Shown here one piece after another: positions 9,802-15,476 of a stretch of DNA of 40,616 bases; positions within the stretch are counted from its first letter, which is position 1, and each line of letters starts with the position of its first letter. The stretch is taken from positions 212,407-253,022 of the IMG/VR virus record IMGVR_UViG_3300038393_003162; one strand, given 5' to 3'. The DNA is from a virus (Duplodnaviria; Heunggongvirae; Uroviricota; Caudoviricetes). The notes under the pieces are model-generated. The model had not been told where the DNA came from, searched no databases, and worked only from the letters and a program-made list of their open reading frames with translations. Both the position numbers and the translations under genes were made by a program.

Positions 9802-9876
9802 TCGGAGCGGTCGGATTCGAACCGACATTCTTCGCGCCCCAAACGCGACGGATTAACCAAGTTTTCCTACGCTCCG
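9802..9876 (-). tRNA. trnP: tRNA-Pro(TGG)
   Basis: CGGAGCG/CGCTCCG acceptor, TCGCG-TTTGGGG-CGCGA anticodon arm, TTCGAAT T loop, A73. Confidence 0.95.
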
Positions 9877-9884
9877 TATTTGTC

Positions 9885-10103
9885 TTATCGCTTACCTGCT
9901 CGCATCTTCTTCAGACCACGTCGAGCCTTCTCGGTCTCAGCCGCCTCTCGTGCGACCATCCAGATTCGGCGCACCTTGCGAGGGGTATCCTTGTGGCGTT
10001 CCATCTCGCGGCACTTGTCGATCCAGGAGAGCAATTCTCGATCAGTCATATCCAGCGGCTCGGTTTGCTTTAGTCGTTCCAGTTCCTTTTCGCCCATTTT
10101 CAT
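9885..10103 (-). CDS. hypothetical protein (72 aa)
   Basis: GAGG SD before ATG 10103. Confidence 0.6.
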   Translation of the reverse strand: MKMGEKELERLKQTEPLDMTDRELLSWIDKCREMERHKDTPRKVRRIWMVAREAAETEKARRGLKKMRAGKR

Positions 10104-10118
10104 TACCTCGATACAAAC

Positions 10119-10160
10119 AAAAAAACCCTCGCTCAAGCTTTGTTCGCCTGAACGAGGGTT
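10119..10160 (-). terminator. intrinsic terminator (possibly conditional)
   Basis: 14-bp stem AACCCTCGTTCAGG/CTTGAGCGAGGGTT ending in a run of 7 T. Confidence 0.8.
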
Positions 10161-10184
10161 AGATTGTTTGAATCTTCCGCTCTG

Positions 10185-10368
10185 GTTCAGGCTTTCACAC
10201 CCGACCCAGATGAGTGAGGTGTGATTTAGATGGTCGTCGCGGGCTTATTCTGCCCGTTATCGCCAACACATGGCGCGACAATGACGGTACGCACGATATG
10301 CGTATTCCTCATTGTATGCCAGTTTTGTTGACGTTTGCCGACGAATCTCATCTCACACCATCCTGAAC
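10185..10368 (-). ncRNA. candidate riboswitch-like pseudoknotted RNA domain
   Basis: Nested stems GTTCAGG/CCTGAAC, GATGGT/ACCATC, TCGTCG/CGACGA, ACAATGA/TCATTGT, TACGCA/TGCGTA, CGCCA/TGGCG, CGGGC/GCCCG, TCACACC/GGTGTGA; pseudoknot AGATGAG/CTCATCT. Confidence 0.55.
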
Positions 10369-10407
10369 GAAAAATTATTTGTTTGAGGGACCTACCTCGG
10401 TCCTCAG

Positions 10408-10479
10408 ATGCGGTGGAAGGATTTGAACCTTCGTCCTCCAGGTTATGAGCCTGGCAAGCTACCACTGCTCCACACCGCG
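10408..10479 (-). tRNA. trnfM: initiator-type tRNA-fMet(CAT)
   Basis: CGCGGTG/CACCGCA acceptor with C1xA72 mismatch, CTCATAA loop; closely resembles bacterial tRNA-fMet. Confidence 0.9.
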
Positions 10480-10585
10480 AACTTGTATTGTACGACTATA
10501 TAGACACCGCCATTTGTTTTTTGGTCACTTAGCAAAGAAAGAAAATTCTTTACACAAATGACGGCGTCTTAATCGTGATGTACTT

Positions 10586-10614
10586 AATATAGCATAGATG
10601 TTTAACTTTTGCAA
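10586..10614 (-). promoter_or_regulatory. strong sigma70-type promoter of the tRNA operon
   Basis: TTGCAA-N17-TATATT, TG extension, AT-rich UP-like tract upstream. Confidence 0.7.
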
Positions 10615-11502: not shown

Positions 11503-11579
11503 CCTCAATTTTGGTGGGTAATTAAAATTGAACTTAGATTACATTGAACTTATTAAGATACTTATATATTTGAAAGAAA

Positions 11580-11617
11580 ATAAAACCCCAAGGGACAACT
11601 GCAACTGTCCCTTGGGG
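11580..11617 (-). terminator. intrinsic terminator
   Basis: 12-bp stem CCCCAAGGGACA/TGTCCCTTGGGG followed by TTTTATTT. Confidence 0.85.
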
Positions 11618-11925
11618 GAGTCCTCATTCACGGCAGAGGACCGGCATTCCGCCTGTTTCTGGCGACCGATTGCTGAGTCATTTCACATCCATACCAATTA
11701 TTAGTTGGCACGAACGGATCATCAACAATTTACCAGCACCGCTTTCGCGATACTGGTCCGGTCTAACAGGAAACATGGGGTCTAGTAGTCGAACTCCCTC
11801 CCTGGCAAAAAAGGAGCTAAACGAGTTATACCCCCAGACACTCTTTTCTCTGAAGTTTTTCGTCCTCAGAGGGAGACGAAGGCATTTATCTTTACCCCCT
11901 GGTTCAAAATCAGGAGGAGAGTCAC
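11618..11925 (-). ncRNA. candidate ~310-nt structured RNA downstream of the HNH-like gene
   Basis: Continuous hairpins, e.g. the 11-bp ACCAGTATCGC-GAAA-GCGGTGCTGGT; no convincing ORF. Confidence 0.4.
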
Positions 11926-11932
11926 AATGCCT

Positions 11933-13192
11933 TTAACGACTGATTCCAATTATACCAGATTCGGGTCTGGTGTAAAGACTTTTACTGATCGATTTCTTAT
12001 CCACCGGGGTCGTGATTGCCTTTTCGAAGCTCCAATTTCGCTTAAGGCGAGCGGTGATTGTTACTCGACTCGAAACAACTCGCCGCTTATCCTTGAGCCA
12101 TTCGGACATTGTTTTCTCTTCGCCGAACGCTCGGTACAAGGGCATTTGTTGCTCGGGGTGAGTGATTGCTCTTTCCGGTTCCCAATTGCTATAGAGCCGG
12201 TGCCTCAGCAACTTCACATTGACACGGCAACGACCATCATTCGCCCATTCCCTGATTGTCTTCTTTTCGCCGAATGCTTCATATTCCTCGAAAGTTCGCA
12301 GATCAACAGATATTGCCTTTTCATTATCTTGAGATGTGTTACATTTTTTCAAGCGTTTGCGAAGACTGTGGTATGTGTTCCCGGTTCCGCACCTGGGGTC
12401 TTGCAGCCACTCTGCGAGAGTTTTCGACTCTCCGAATGCTTCGTATTTTTCAGGCAAAAAAGCGTAATCATGCGTAAAGGCTTTTTGAAAACTCCATTTT
12501 TCCACGACGATCCGCTGGCGAATCGTTTCCGGAGCGGCTGCCGGACGTCGTGGGTCTCGCATCCATTGTTCCCAAGTTTTCTTCTCGCCGAACGCCGTAT
12601 ATATCTTTCCACGGGTGCTGGTTGTATTGACCGCTTCGGCGACGGTCATCCCCGATTTAATCCTACTCCGCAGGGTTGATGGGCTTTTTCCGGTGATAAA
12701 AGCCAATTCTCCGATTGTGTATTTCTCCCCTTCGTATTCATGTTTCGCGTAGCTGGGACGGTCTTTTTTCCAGAAACAATTTTCAGGGGAATATCCCTGC
12801 GATTTGTCTCGACGTTGTAGACTATAGCAGCGTCTAGGTTTTGGCTTGCGACCCATGTTGGCGAGGAATTGGGTAAATCCGTTCTCGCCTTTCCACGATT
12901 CACAGACATCGTCTGGACTTCTCTTGACCATCTTCGACCATGCTTTGTGTTCATGGAACGCGGGGTTTCTTTTGCCGCGTCGGCAATCGCCCTTCTTCCA
13001 GCAATTCTTACAACTATTGTCGGAATATGCGTCGATCAGGTCATGACGAATAACGTGTTTGTGATTGCACTTGATACACTGACATTTCCAGTACCGTCTT
13101 TTTCTCTTATCGGAGGATTCGGATTTAAAGACCAAGTCAAGGACTTTCCAGGTTCCGATGGTTTGTCCGGTCAAGTCGATGAGGGTCCGCAT
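11933..13192 (-). CDS. HNH-like homing endonuclease family protein with five C-terminal ~45-aa repeats
   Basis: IDLTGQTIG.W.V...WKCQC...SC; F..F...MG..P...SLQRRD...Y.PENC.W; repeats Y-x-AFGE-x-KT-x-x-(E/Q)W. Confidence 0.75.
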   Translation of the reverse strand: MRTLIDLTGQTIGTWKVLDLVFKSESSDKRKRRYWKCQCIKCNHKHVIRHDLIDAYSDNSCKNCWKKGDCRRGKRNPAFHEHKAWSKMVKRSPDDVCESWKGENGFTQFLANMGRKPKPRRCYSLQRRDKSQGYSPENCFWKKDRPSYAKHEYEGEKYTIGELAFITGKSPSTLRSRIKSGMTVAEAVNTTSTRGKIYTAFGEKKTWEQWMRDPRRPAAAPETIRQRIVVEKWSFQKAFTHDYAFLPEKYEAFGESKTLAEWLQDPRCGTGNTYHSLRKRLKKCNTSQDNEKAISVDLRTFEEYEAFGEKKTIREWANDGRCRVNVKLLRHRLYSNWEPERAITHPEQQMPLYRAFGEEKTMSEWLKDKRRVVSSRVTITARLKRNWSFEKAITTPVDKKSISKSLYTRPESGIIGISR

Positions 13193-13213: not shown

Positions 13214-15328
13214 TCAACCGAGGATGTTGAGGAATTCTTTCACGGAGATGATCGGGACACCGAGTTGCTTGGCTTTATCGCTCTTGGACCCGCTGTTGGG
13301 ACCGGCGACGAGGTACGCTGTGACGTATCCTTGTGAGCTAGGGACCATCCCCTTGCTGACGCTGCCGCTGAGCTTGCCGCCATGGTGAGCGATCATCTGC
13401 TCGATGTCTTTCTTCTTGTAAGGGTCCATATCTCCGGACAAGACGAATGTATAACCTTGGAGTGTGCCGGTCGTCTTGGGCAATTCCGGCTCGACGTAAT
13501 TCAGCAGATCATCGATCATGGCTGAATTTTCGTCAAAGAATGCTCGGATTGAGATGGCGGTAATGGGACCGATATTATCGACCTCAAGCAACTGGTCTTT
13601 GGTGGCTCCCCGAATCTTGGAGAGTTCTCCAAAATGATCGACCAATGCCTTGCCTGTGCTCTTCCCAGCCCCTTTGACGCCGCATGATGCGAAGAAAACC
13701 CAGAGAGGGGTGGACTTCTTGAGCAACATGGCTGCGGAGATCCTTTGTGCGAGCTTGCCGTTGTCTTTCTCTTTGCTAGGGTCGGGGACCATGTGGATAG
13801 CAGCCATGGCAAGCAAGGCTTGCCGTTCCGACAGTCCTGCCTTCTGGATTTGAGGGACATTGAGTCGGTAGAAGTCGGCGGGCGACTTGACCAATTTCTC
13901 TTCGCCCATGGCGAGGGCTTTGAGGGCGGATGTTCCCAAGCCTTTCACGCCGAAAACGCGGAGGTAATGGAGGAGGTTATTGACAAGCTGCTCTGGGCAT
14001 TGTCGGTTGACACAGACCTCGTTATATTTGTCGGGCTTGCTTCCGGGGATGATCTGCGTCCGATGGCGGCAGGTCGGACAAGTCATATCGCTGATATGGT
14101 TATGGAGATTGCTTGTGGTCCGAATCCACTTGGGGATGATCTTCCCCGCCTTGACGATGACTCCTTCAGTGCCGACATCGATGCCATTGGTGTGAACGAA
14201 GCCGAGGTTGTGAAGGGTACATCGGCTCACTTCTGTCTTTTCGAGTTGAACGGGGGTTTCGAAGACGGCAACATAGGTGATCTTACCGGTCCTTCCGGTC
14301 TGCTTGACCATTTTTGCGACGGTGACGGACTTTTCTTCGTCGGGGAGTTTCCAGGCAACTTTGCCGACTGGATTGCCGGTGAGGGAGTTACCGTGGGTTC
14401 CCATCTGTTCTTGGGCTTCCAGATTATCGACCATCAGGACAATGCCATCGATGAGGCAATCCTGGTCGTTTACCGTCTTCTCCATCTCGTACAGGTCGTC
14501 GAGGTCGAGGGGGTTATGGGGGGTGATCTCTACGCATGGGATGCCGAATGTGTCTCGGCAAAACGTGGCACGATTGGTCTCGGTGGTATAGTTGACATCA
14601 CCGAGACCAACGATGGAATGAGCGATGAACCGGATCTTCCTTCTGCCAGTCTCGCTAGGGTCGTTGTCTTGCCGCACGGACCCGGTCGTGTAGTTTCGTT
14701 CGTTCTTGAATTTTTCCTTGATCTTGCCAGACTGAAACAATTCCTCGTTGATCTGCTCGAAATCGCTCTTGGTGACGTAGAGCTCGCCCCTCACGGTACA
14801 CGTGAGAGGCAATGGGAGCGTCTCAGGAACGCCGATGACGTACTCAACATTCTTGGTGCGGTCTTCGGCGTCGTAGCCGTTCTGAGGGCGTAGACCGGCT
14901 CTGACCCGGATGCCCTTGACGTATTCGATGCTGACGCCGACGCCATCGATCTTAAGCGACTTGCAGAACTTAACATCCTTGCCGAGTTCCTTCTGGCATC
15001 GCTTGATCCAGGCGACATAGTCGGCTTCTCGGGAGGGACCGACTTGTTTCTCCAGCGAGGTCATCGGGTATTCGAGGCGGATTGTCGGGGCGTTGGGCTT
15101 GTAGGTCGATCCAGTAACTCGGTCCCAATAGGGATTGTCAGGGAACTGGATCTTGCTTTCCTTGCGGATCAGGTCGTATTGATGGTTAGAGACCTCTTCC
15201 CCTGTGATGGGGTTGATACAAGGTTCGTTGGCTTCGAAGGCAGTATCGAGGGCAGTCAAGACCAAGAAGACTTCTTCTTCATTCGCTGCGAAGTCAAGGA
15301 TGTCACTATTGACGAAATCACTGTCCAT
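13214..15328 (-). CDS. ligA: NAD-dependent DNA ligase
   Basis: K-I-D-G adenylation motif, VRGE, DGIV, GRTG, CPTC..C..C zinc finger, HhH motifs, C-terminal BRCT. Start set at ATG 15328, coupled to the upstream small ORF. Confidence 0.95.
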   Translation of the reverse strand: MDSDFVNSDILDFAANEEEVFLVLTALDTAFEANEPCINPITGEEVSNHQYDLIRKESKIQFPDNPYWDRVTGSTYKPNAPTIRLEYPMTSLEKQVGPSREADYVAWIKRCQKELGKDVKFCKSLKIDGVGVSIEYVKGIRVRAGLRPQNGYDAEDRTKNVEYVIGVPETLPLPLTCTVRGELYVTKSDFEQINEELFQSGKIKEKFKNERNYTTGSVRQDNDPSETGRRKIRFIAHSIVGLGDVNYTTETNRATFCRDTFGIPCVEITPHNPLDLDDLYEMEKTVNDQDCLIDGIVLMVDNLEAQEQMGTHGNSLTGNPVGKVAWKLPDEEKSVTVAKMVKQTGRTGKITYVAVFETPVQLEKTEVSRCTLHNLGFVHTNGIDVGTEGVIVKAGKIIPKWIRTTSNLHNHISDMTCPTCRHRTQIIPGSKPDKYNEVCVNRQCPEQLVNNLLHYLRVFGVKGLGTSALKALAMGEEKLVKSPADFYRLNVPQIQKAGLSERQALLAMAAIHMVPDPSKEKDNGKLAQRISAAMLLKKSTPLWVFFASCGVKGAGKSTGKALVDHFGELSKIRGATKDQLLEVDNIGPITAISIRAFFDENSAMIDDLLNYVEPELPKTTGTLQGYTFVLSGDMDPYKKKDIEQMIAHHGGKLSGSVSKGMVPSSQGYVTAYLVAGPNSGSKSDKAKQLGVPIISVKEFLNILG

Positions 15329-15476
15329 ATGTTTCACCAATTGGTCCAAAGTTTTTGGCGAGATTCCAAAGAGAGGTGGTCATGTCTCTGCTGTGCTTGG
15401 CGAGATGTATCTTGCCGGTTTCATCGACGAGATACCACCAAGACGTCCCGCCGCCTAAGAGTTGAGCCCAGCGCAT
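15318..15476 (-). CDS. hypothetical protein (52 aa, MRWAQLLGGG...)
   Basis: Read manually; fills the gap and its TGA overlaps the ligase start region. Confidence 0.45.
   Translation of the reverse strand: MRWAQLLGGGTSWWYLVDETGKIHLAKHSRDMTTSLWNLAKNFGPIGETYGQ

What the first reader, a model, noticed from the sequence alone, without database searches (positions are those of the whole stretch)
10119..10368. Riboswitch-like pseudoknotted domain with mutually exclusive terminator/antiterminator inside the tRNA operon
Seen on the minus strand, just after tRNA-fMet: a 184-nt domain closed by P1 GTTCAGG(10362-10368)/CCTGAAC(10185-10191). It has at least seven internal helices and a 7-bp pseudoknot AGATGAG(10347-10353)/CTCATCT(10208-10214). 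The 9-mer TCGTTCAGG occurs twice, as the P1 5' strand and in the left arm of the downstream 14-bp terminator. So GCCTGAAC can instead pair with the terminator arm (8 bp, 10146-10153) and form an extended antiterminator. This is the classic logic of a transcriptional OFF switch. It would gate read-through from tRNA-fMet into the downstream tRNA/HNH array. I cannot assign it to a known aptamer class.
Basis: partly seen in the sequence, partly recalled or inferred. Interest (0 to 1): 0.8.

Follow-up and report, generated by a model that had tools for sequence, protein, structure and literature searches.

The report
Attenuator leader before phage tRNA genes
This is a real, conserved ~250-base folded RNA at the head of a giant phage's tRNA gene array; it most likely works as a stop/go transcription switch set by a ribosome reading a short threonine-rich leader frame, not as a small-molecule riboswitch.

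Summary
The stretch folds far better than chance (z -9.85) and ends in a strong intrinsic terminator. No Rfam family matches.

I found homologues in two related huge phages: L003 (a Logan contig) and G002 (a 436-kb IMG/VR record). All three keep the same plan:
- a 5'/3' closing helix and a long hairpin rod;
- a chain of mutually exclusive helices ending in an antiterminator and a terminator;
- tRNA genes downstream, 5-10 nt after the U-run in G002, and a 72-aa ORF plus tRNA-Pro starting ~15 nt after it in the window.

Antiterminator complementarity beats shuffles in each lineage (8/2000, 7/2000, 35/2000).

The would-be aptamer is not conserved in sequence either, so a metabolite riboswitch is unlikely.

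Instead, each lineage has a 35-46-codon frame that spans the rod and stops 1-3 nt before the first switching segment, with UAA, UGA or UAG. Thr codons are enriched in that frame only (18 of 26 AC dinucleotides, P 2e-4).

Best reading: a thr/his-type leader-peptide attenuator gating a phage tRNA operon. Confidence is about 0.45 for this trigger and about 0.7 for a conditional terminator of any kind. Nothing is tested experimentally, and only three lineages are known.

The parts
10586..10614 (-). Sigma-70-like promoter (TTGCAA-17-TATATT with TG) that would drive the tRNA-Met + leader RNA unit
   Evidence: This is a consensus match only.
10407..10479 (-). tRNA-Met(CAU), initiator-like (C1.A72 mismatch). 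It lies upstream of the element in this phage only.
10384..10406 (-). Small hairpin directly after the tRNA 3' end
10365..10376 (-). H1 5' strand (AAUUUUUCGUUC) of the closing helix. It is part of the 25-nt direct repeat 10386-10362.
   Evidence: Pair probability 0.88. The CGyUC/GAGyG core is kept in L003 through one-sided changes. The repeat is shown.
10358..10364 (-). AGGAUGG, an unpaired Shine-Dalgarno-like motif 9 nt upstream of the leader AUG; identical in L003
   Evidence: G002 has AAGGAG 10 nt before its AUG.
10353..10359 (-). X1 (GGUGUGA), which pairs with Y to close the rod
   Evidence: (I8)
10226..10351 (-). Leader reading frame: AUG 10351, 41 codons, UAA 10228-10226. It spans the whole hairpin rod, has 5 Thr codons, and ends Thr-Thr-Ile-stop.
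10234..10348 (-). Long irregular hairpin rod with a side hairpin (helices H3-H8)
   Evidence: Rod-like in all three lineages, but not alignable in sequence.
10218..10224 (-). Y (UCACACC), the first switching segment, 1 nt after the stop codon. It pairs with X1 or with X2.
   Evidence: (I3, I8)
10195..10210 (-). X2 and the 5' arm of hairpin H9 (CUGG-G-UCGGGUGUGA). It pairs with Y or with W.
10182..10192 (-). W (GCCUGAACCAG), the 3' arm of H9 and also the 5' strand of the antiterminator
   Evidence: (I4)
10171..10182 (-). H1 3' strand (GAGCGGAAGAUU). Its first bases can instead extend the antiterminator.
10119..10160 (-). Intrinsic terminator: 15-bp stem at 10160-10124 (left arm Z2 10160-10146, right arm Z3 10138-10124) and the U-run to 10119
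   Evidence: Across three lineages, 3 of 13 pairs change on both sides and 97% of cells are paired.
9885..10103 (-). 72-aa ORFan (P0002). Its RBS starts ~9 nt after the U-run, and no promoter-like site lies between.
9802..9876 (-). tRNA-Pro(UGG), 8 nt after the P0002 stop. It is the first tRNA downstream of the switch, as in L003.

Best explanation
The element is the leader of a phage tRNA operon and acts as a conditional terminator, that is, a transcription attenuator.

Its conserved 3' module is a chain of segments in which each can pair with either neighbour: X1:Y, Y:X2, X2:W, W:Z2, Z2:Z3.
- In the 'stop' fold, the rod is closed (X1:Y), hairpin H9 (X2:W) and closing helix H1 form, and Z2:Z3 is an intrinsic terminator.
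- In the 'go' fold, Y:X2 forms, W is freed and pairs with the terminator's left arm, and RNA polymerase reads on into the tRNA genes.

The most likely sensor is a ribosome translating a 35-46-codon, Thr-codon-rich leader frame that spans the rod and ends 1-3 nt before Y.
- A ribosome that reaches the stop codon covers Y, so H9 and the terminator form.
- A ribosome stalled on the Thr codons just before the stop leaves Y free, so Y:X2 and then the antiterminator form.

Shown here: the helices, their conservation, the frame, its position and its Thr bias.
Inferred: that the frame is translated, that stalling sets the fold, and that read-through is regulated.

I put about 0.7 on a conditional terminator of some kind and 0.45 on this ribosome-coupled version.
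For: 1. Family. Homologues occur in two related huge phages:
- L003 ~14072-14340, found by alignment.
- G002 = L068 ~1337-1615, found with covariance model R1 at 27 bits, E 5e-5 in a 436-kb record.
Fold z-scores are -9.85, -3.5 and -8.3.

2. Terminator and H9. Over three lineages 98% of cells are paired and 4 pairs change on both sides; sliding the partners drops pairing to 54% or less.

3. Antiterminator.
- 100% of 23 cells are paired, against 44% or less when slid.
- Duplex energy beats dinucleotide shuffles: 8/2000, 7/2000, 35/2000.
- In L003 the change U-A to C-G keeps the pair.
- In G002 the upstream alternative helix is rebuilt from different sequence (CCUGAACCG / CGGUUCAGG / CCUGAACCGG) with the same topology.

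4. Energies. The nascent transcript up to the terminator's left arm folds into the 'go' state in all three lineages. Full-length RNA prefers 'stop' by 8.6 kcal/mol (window), 0.6 (L003) and 13.8 (G002).

5. Context.
- G002: own promoter, then the RNA, then the terminator, then tRNA-Met starting 5-10 nt after the U-run, at the head of about 30 tRNA genes in 7.5 kb.
- Window: the P0002 RBS is ~9 nt after the U-run, then tRNA-Pro, with no promoter-like site between.
- L003: tRNA-Pro and 21 more tRNAs follow.

6. Leader frame.
- An AUG frame of at least 35 codons ending within 9 nt of the first switch segment is present in all three, with stops UAA, UGA and UAG. In shuffles this occurs 170/5000, 116/5000 and 21/5000 times.
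- SD-like AGGA lies 9 nt before the AUG in the window, and AAGGAG 10 nt before it in G002.

7. Thr codons.
- 18 observed against 6.5 expected, P 8e-5.
- 18 of 26 AC dinucleotides lie in codon positions 1-2 of that frame (5/9, 6/9, 7/8), P 2e-4.
- The frames end Thr-Thr-Ile-stop, Thr-stop and Thr-Thr-Val-stop.

8. The only Rfam near-hit is His_leader, far below threshold (17.7 bits against 49).
Against: - Only three lineages are known, and two of them share sequence around the stop codon, so the tests are not independent.
- I noticed the frame and the Thr bias after looking at many features. After correction for 20 amino acids, P is about 2e-3 to 4e-3.
- The antiterminator pairs are mostly invariant. 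Covariation alone is weak (163 of 500 shuffles reach it).
- Each double change is also tolerated in the 'stop' fold through G.U wobble.
- There is no dense run of control codons as in thrL or hisL.
- The start codon and SD are ambiguous in L003.
- Other structured RNAs of this genome also carry 32-38-codon frames.
- The peptide sequence is not conserved beyond nucleotide similarity: same-frame score 26, against 24 and 28 in other frame pairs.
- The rod is much longer and more stable than a classical attenuator needs.
- Equilibrium folding with a ribosome placed on Thr or on the stop gives the terminator in both cases, so the model rests on folding order.
- Known leader-peptide attenuators control amino-acid operons or pheST, not tRNA arrays (my own knowledge).
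Confidence: 0.45

Rival explanations
1. It is a conditional terminator, but the trigger is not a ribosome. Candidates are a phage or host RNA-binding protein that holds hairpin H9 (the anti-antiterminator, as in PyrR-type control), a tRNA or other RNA, or simply folding kinetics and polymerase speed.
For: The helix-chain and context evidence is the same as for the best explanation.

H9 with its bulged A, and the flanking CCUCACUC, are the most conserved bases between the window and L003. In L003 the 5' arm of H9 and the terminator's left arm are 86% identical direct repeats, as if both were read by one partner.
Against: It leaves unexplained the positionally conserved frame with three different stop codons and the frame-specific Thr bias. 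No candidate binding-protein gene is shared next to the element in the three lineages. In G002 the 5' arm of H9 has a different sequence, which argues against a sequence-specific protein site.
Confidence: 0.2
2. It is a stable non-coding RNA gene embedded in the tRNA operon. It would be released by tRNA-processing enzymes or by its own terminator, like the species 1 and 2 RNAs of the T4 tRNA cluster. The alternative pairings and the reading frame would be incidental.
For: The fold is very stable, with z about -8 to -10. A closing 5'/3' helix and a 3' hairpin plus U-run are typical of stable small RNAs. The same genome is rich in other structured RNAs, Y RNAs and tRNA look-alikes. The element abuts a tRNA on one side or the other, so RNase P or RNase Z would cut it free. 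The rod is longer than an attenuator needs.
Against: Downstream genes start 5-15 nt after the U-run with no promoter-like site in two lineages, so read-through must occur. Antiterminator complementarity exceeds chance in all three. The module in which every base has two partners is the most conserved part, which is what a switch predicts. The frame position and Thr bias are unexplained.
Confidence: 0.22
3. It is a metabolite- or second-messenger-binding OFF riboswitch with a 184-nt pseudoknotted aptamer closed by GUUCAGG/CCUGAAC.
For: The complementarities exist. The expression-platform logic is real.
Against: P1, the pseudoknot and the 5' copy of the 9-mer are absent in L003 and G002. P1 pair probabilities are 0.0. 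The 'aptamer' region is not conserved in sequence, while the platform is. No Rfam aptamer class matches even at E 10.
Confidence: 0.05
4. It is an ordinary small-protein gene (36-46 aa) whose mRNA happens to be highly structured and ends at a terminator.
For: A frame with an SD-like motif is present in three lineages. Its amino-acid composition is biased.
Against: The peptides share no significant similarity. Gene callers called no gene there in L003. The fold z-scores and conserved alternative helices are not features of a plain coding gene.
Confidence: 0.05

Closest known systems
Leader-peptide transcription attenuators of enterobacterial operons (thrL, hisL, trpL; Rfam Thr_leader, His_leader, Trp_leader) and the pheST (pheM) attenuator
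   Same: - An intrinsic terminator ahead of the regulated genes.
- A chain of mutually exclusive helices. The six-segment layout resembles the his leader (A:B, C:D, E:F against B:C, D:E; my own knowledge).
- A short frame whose stop lies next to the first switching segment.
- One amino acid's codons enriched, and placed just before the stop.
- pheST shows that such control can govern translation-machinery genes (my own knowledge).
   Different: - No sequence or model match: His_leader scores 17.7 bits against a 49-bit threshold.
- Thr codons are scattered plus terminal, not a dense run.
- The frame is 35-46 codons long and lies inside a ~130-nt hairpin rod.
- A 5'/3' closing helix is present.
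- It controls a phage tRNA array.
- The likely host phylum is Planctomycetota, where attenuation is unstudied.
Transcriptional OFF riboswitches
   Same: A folded domain whose 3' strand is shared with an antiterminator that competes with a terminator.
   Different: There is no conserved ligand-binding core. The sensing domain is the least conserved part. No known aptamer class matches.
T-box leaders (tRNA-sensing antiterminators)
   Same: A long stem-I-like rod, then a small hairpin, then antiterminator and terminator; the theme is tRNA supply.
   Different: No Rfam T-box match. No T-box sequence or UGGN bulge in the antiterminator. No K-turn or specifier features were seen.
Stable RNAs of the phage T4 tRNA gene cluster (species 1 and 2 RNAs)
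   Same: A structured non-tRNA RNA co-located, and probably co-transcribed, with phage tRNA genes (my own knowledge of T4).
   Different: This element carries its own terminator with a conserved competing helix and a conserved reading frame. No sequence relation was tested, because T4 sequences were not compared here.
PyrR / TRAP-type protein-mediated attenuation
   Same: Three-hairpin logic: anti-antiterminator (H9), antiterminator, terminator.
   Different: No binding protein was identified. The H9 sequence is not kept in G002.

Membership tests
Metabolite riboswitch (any Rfam aptamer class) | Match to a curated aptamer model | tested here: not met
   No family other than tRNA reached its gathering score anywhere in the window. 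In the 800-nt stretch no riboswitch family appeared even at E up to 10.
Metabolite riboswitch (any Rfam aptamer class) | A ligand-binding core conserved in sequence and structure among homologues, more so than the expression platform | tested here: not met
The 5' two-thirds is barely alignable between lineages, while the 3' switching module is ~80% identical.
Metabolite riboswitch (any Rfam aptamer class) | Mutually exclusive terminator and antiterminator | tested here: met
Leader-peptide transcription attenuator (trp/his/thr type) | An intrinsic terminator directly upstream of the controlled genes, with no intervening promoter | tested here: met
   Terminator. Downstream gene starts 5-15 nt after the U-run in G002 and in the window. 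In L003 the gap is 129 nt and holds only one weak promoter-like match.
Leader-peptide transcription attenuator (trp/his/thr type) | Alternative antiterminator pairing that excludes the terminator | tested here: met
   Beats shuffles in three lineages (8/2000, 7/2000, 35/2000). All cells are paired.
Leader-peptide transcription attenuator (trp/his/thr type) | A short ORF with a ribosome-binding site whose stop codon lies at the first switching segment | tested here: met
   The stop is 1, 1 and 3 nt before the segment, and the frames are 41, 46 (or 35) and 36 codons long. In shuffles this occurs 170, 116 and 21 times in 5000. The SD is clear in the window and G002 and ambiguous in L003.
Leader-peptide transcription attenuator (trp/his/thr type) | Control codons for one amino acid concentrated in the leader | tested here: inconclusive
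   Thr codons are 2.8-fold enriched, specific to the frame, and present just before the stop in all three. They do not form a run, and the choice of Thr was made after the fact.
Leader-peptide transcription attenuator (trp/his/thr type) | Translation of the leader changes termination | not testable with these tools
Rfam His_leader (RF00514) | Score at or above the gathering threshold | tested here: not met
   17.7 bits against 49, E 2.9
T-box leader | Rfam T-box match, or a T-box sequence with a UGGN bulge in the antiterminator | tested here: not met
   No hit at E up to 10. The antiterminator strands carry no UGGN bulge.
6S RNA / other known stable RNAs (SRP, tmRNA, RNase P, YrlA) | Rfam model match | tested here: not met
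   ARAGORN found no tmRNA

The most novel reading that the evidence does not exclude
The phage measures the host's decoding capacity directly. When ribosomes stall on the Thr codons of the leader, for example because threonyl-tRNA is short through codon-usage mismatch, starvation or a host tRNA-cutting defence, the antiterminator forms and the phage's own tRNA array is transcribed. As supply recovers, the leader terminates again. This would be demand-driven, self-limiting control of a viral tRNA operon by classical attenuation, in a ~585-kb phage of a phylum (probably Planctomycetota) where neither has been described.
Probability: 0.3. Interest if true: 0.85.

Novelty: new variant of a known kind. 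Interest (0 to 1): 0.65.

Why it matters
Large phages carry dozens of tRNA genes, and how their expression is controlled is essentially unknown. A conserved stop/go leader in front of such arrays would be the first regulatory element assigned to them. If a ribosome is the sensor, the phage would tune its tRNA supply to the state of host translation. That bears on why phages carry tRNAs at all: codon compensation, or escape from tRNA-targeting defences.

It would also extend leader-peptide attenuation, a textbook mechanism known from amino-acid operons of a few bacterial groups, to viruses and to RNA genes as targets. The three sequences give an immediately testable design: AUG, stop-position, Thr-codon and helix-swap mutants in a reporter.

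In full-text searches I found no paper describing such an element. Those searches cover only the held library.

Tried and rejected
Searches that found no further homologues:
- blastn against cultured phages.
- IMG/VR scans with P0002, the ligase, a ligase alignment, a tRNA-plus-hairpin pattern and two RNA motifs. The hits were coding regions of unrelated high-GC phages.
- JGI metagenomes: 8 chance hits.
- GTDB genomes: none.
- A three-way pattern in IMG/VR recovered only G002.
- Models R1 and R2 found no copy elsewhere in this genome, in G001 or in G003-G007.

Dead ends among the relatives:
- The lineage with the closest ligase (P0006, 58% identity) could not be extended. All its contigs stop 58 nt after the secreted-protein gene.
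- P0002 is an ORFan.
- The repeat protein and the GATase were useless as anchors.
- Other contigs of the same phage are identical over the RNA.

Readings considered and dropped:
- A tRNA with an insert or intron: no T arm precedes CCTGAAC, and aragorn -i finds nothing there.
- A group I intron, 6S RNA, tmRNA, Y RNA or T-box: no Rfam signal.
- A DNA-level cruciform or insertion with target duplications: strand asymmetry of 22 kcal/mol and G.U pairs argue for RNA, and the repeat is only 72% identical.
- A type I toxin mRNA: the peptides are not hydrophobic.
- A conserved micro-protein.

Methods that did not help:
- My own Sankoff-style alignment gave only a rough common architecture for the rod.
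- Equilibrium folding with a ribosome placed on the message did not discriminate between the states.
- Relatives of a virus record cannot be drawn, so host genomes were not scanned.

Full report
**What is there**

On the minus strand the window reads as follows:
- a sigma-70-like promoter (10614-10586);
- a structured leader;
- tRNA-Met(CAU) with an initiator-type C1.A72 mismatch (10479-10407);
- a small hairpin (10406-10384);
- a ~210-nt folded domain (10376-10165);
- a 15-bp terminator with a U-run (10160-10119);
- about 9 nt later, the ribosome-binding site of a 72-aa ORFan (P0002, 10103-9885);
- 8 nt after its stop, tRNA-Pro(UGG).

The 297-nt stretch folds at -132.1 kcal/mol, z -9.85. The opposite strand reaches only -109.8, so this is RNA structure on the transcribed strand. 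No Rfam family other than tRNA matches. The best sub-threshold matches in the region were a streptococcal sRNA on the terminator hairpin and His_leader at 17.7 bits against a threshold of 49.

**The genome**

The window lies in a 195-kb IMG/VR record with 34 tRNA genes. The same ligase and P0002 sit on a 585-kb contig. The closest cellular ligases are from Planctomycetota, at ~43% identity. Earlier notes of this scan describe Ro60, Y RNAs and a giant tRNA-like RNA in the same phage.

**Homologues**

Close relatives are rare. Most searches of cultured phages, IMG/VR, JGI metagenomes and GTDB genomes by protein or DNA pattern found nothing. Two homologues emerged.

1. L003, a Logan contig whose ligase is 55% identical. 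It carries the RNA at ~14072-14340, directly upstream of tRNA-Pro and 21 further tRNAs. No tRNA precedes it and it has no P0002.
2. G002, a 436-kb IMG/VR phage whose PhoH is 64% identical, found through a PhoH alignment. A covariance model of the 3' module (R1) hits it once, at 27 bits, E 5e-5. Here a TTGACC-17-TATAAA promoter precedes the RNA. An elongator-type tRNA-Met begins 5-10 nt after the U-run, at the head of about 30 tRNA genes in 7.5 kb.

The element is single-copy in each genome. It was not detected in five ~200-kb phages with more distant PhoH, nor in G001.

**Conserved anatomy**

All three lineages share this plan:
- a long-range closing helix H1 between the 5' end and a segment just before the terminator;
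- a long irregular hairpin rod;
- an extended hairpin H9;
- a linker;
- the terminator.

The rod is not alignable in sequence between lineages. The ~110-nt 3' module is ~80% identical between the window and L003.

Over the three sequences, H9 plus the terminator have 98% of cells paired and four pairs changed on both sides. Sliding the partners drops pairing to 54% or less.

Neither it, nor the 7-bp 'pseudoknot', nor the 5' copy of the 9-mer exists in L003 or G002. A perfect 7-bp complement is expected about once by chance in a domain of this size.

**The switch**

The conserved module is a chain in which each segment can pair with either neighbour:
- X1 (10359-10353) with Y (10224-10218);
- Y with X2 (10201-10195);
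- X2 and the H9 5' arm with W (10192-10182);
- W with Z2 (10160-10146);
- Z2 with Z3 (10138-10124).

One fold has X1:Y, H9, H1 and the terminator. The other has Y:X2 and a W:Z2 antiterminator, extendable to 13 bp into the H1 3' strand.

Evidence that the alternative fold is more than chance:
- The antiterminator duplex is stronger than in dinucleotide shuffles in every lineage: 8/2000, 7/2000, 35/2000.
- All 23 cells pair, against 44% or less when slid.
- In L003 one antiterminator pair and one Y:X2 pair change on both sides. The X1, Y and X2 bases change in concert.
- In G002 the Y:X2 step is rebuilt from different sequence: two direct copies of CCUGAACCG flank CGGUUCAGG. The topology is the same.

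Nascent RNA ending at the terminator's left arm folds into the antiterminator state in all three. Full-length RNA prefers the terminator state by 8.6, 0.6 and 13.8 kcal/mol.

The caveats are real. Most antiterminator pairs never vary, so covariation proper is weak. The double changes are also tolerated by wobble in the terminator fold.

**Why read-through matters**

In G002 and in the window the next gene starts 5-15 nt after the U-run, and no promoter-like site lies between. Those genes can be made only from transcripts that pass the terminator. Its position relative to tRNA-Met is not conserved, however.

**What sets the switch**

A metabolite aptamer is unlikely, because the sensing domain is the least conserved part. 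Instead, each lineage has an AUG frame that runs through the whole rod and stops 1, 1 and 3 nt before the first switching segment. The stops are UAA, UGA and UAG.
- Window: 41 codons, AUG 10351 to UAA 10228-10226, with AGGA 9 nt upstream.
- L003: 46 codons, or 35 from an internal AUG AUG behind AGGGG.
- G002: 36 codons, with AAGGAG 10 nt upstream.

Such a frame, at least 35 codons long and ending within 9 nt of that segment, occurs in 3.4%, 2.3% and 0.4% of shuffles.

The peptides are not conserved beyond nucleotide similarity, as expected if only the act of translation matters. Their composition, however, is shared:
- Thr is 2.8-fold enriched, 18 against 6.5 expected, P 8e-5.
- 18 of the 26 AC dinucleotides fall in codon positions 1-2 of this frame, in each lineage (P 2e-4).
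- All three frames end with Thr codons just before the stop.

The geometry fits trp/his/thr-type attenuation. A ribosome at the stop covers Y, so H9 and the terminator form. A ribosome stalled one to three codons earlier leaves Y free, so Y:X2 forms and then the antiterminator.

These last steps are inference. I chose Thr after the fact. Other structured RNAs here also carry 32-38-codon frames. Equilibrium folding with a ribosome placed on the message does not discriminate between the states.

**Verdict**

This is a new, conserved, phage-specific leader RNA with a genuine terminator/antiterminator alternative in front of tRNA genes. The proposed P1, pseudoknot and riboswitch reading do not hold.

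My probabilities:
- ~0.7 that the terminator is conditional;
- 0.45 that a ribosome on the Thr-rich leader frame is the sensor;
- ~0.2 for another trigger;
- ~0.2 for a plain stable RNA.

Full-text searches found no description of such an element.

Noticed in passing
window 9885-10103 (-): P0002, a 72-aa charged, helical-looking ORFan wedged between the terminator and tRNA-Pro. It has no homologue in 5.8 billion protein clusters and is absent from L003 and G002. It looks like a recent insertion that depends on terminator read-through.
   Followed up: partly
window 10500-10570 (-): A 15-bp hairpin (GACGCCGUCAUUUGU / ACAAAUGGCGGUGUC) sits in the leader just 5' of tRNA-Met. L003 has a comparable long hairpin directly 5' of tRNA-Pro (about 14425-14465). 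The only two strain differences seen over 1.5 kb fall here (10515, 10511).
   Followed up: no
window 11570-11940 (-) and L003:13670-14030: The ~350-nt structured RNA downstream of the repeat protein has a homologue in L003 (a 23-nt block 91% identical), placed just upstream of the element studied here. L011 has an ORF-free gap of the same size at the same place. It is probably a second conserved RNA family of this phage group.
   Followed up: partly
window 13214-15349 (-): An NAD-dependent DNA ligase whose nearest cellular relatives are all Planctomycetota / Pirellulales (~43%). Only three phage-like relatives reach 54-58% identity. The identical protein sits on a 585,064-bp contig, so the phage is probably a megaphage and the 195-kb record a fragment.
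   Followed up: partly
window 11933-13192 (-); L011:9547-10641; L003:12821-13447: A protein with repeated 'AFGE.K...W..DPRC' modules is syntenic after the ligase in three lineages. It has 222 database relatives across many phyla, which looks like a mobile DNA-binding or homing-endonuclease-associated family.
   Followed up: partly
G002 (IMGVR_UViG_3300017388_000001), C1:164880-192502: This 436-kb relative carries 62 tRNA matches in several arrays. The densest, about 30 genes in 7.5 kb, starts right after the leader RNA.
   Followed up: no
window 10147-10171 and 10362-10386: A 25-nt imperfect direct repeat (72%, two exact blocks of 8 and 9 nt at equal spacing) makes the 5' end of the RNA resemble the linker plus terminator left arm. 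As a result the 5' end can also pair with the terminator's right arm and U-run in the alternative full-length fold.
   Followed up: partly
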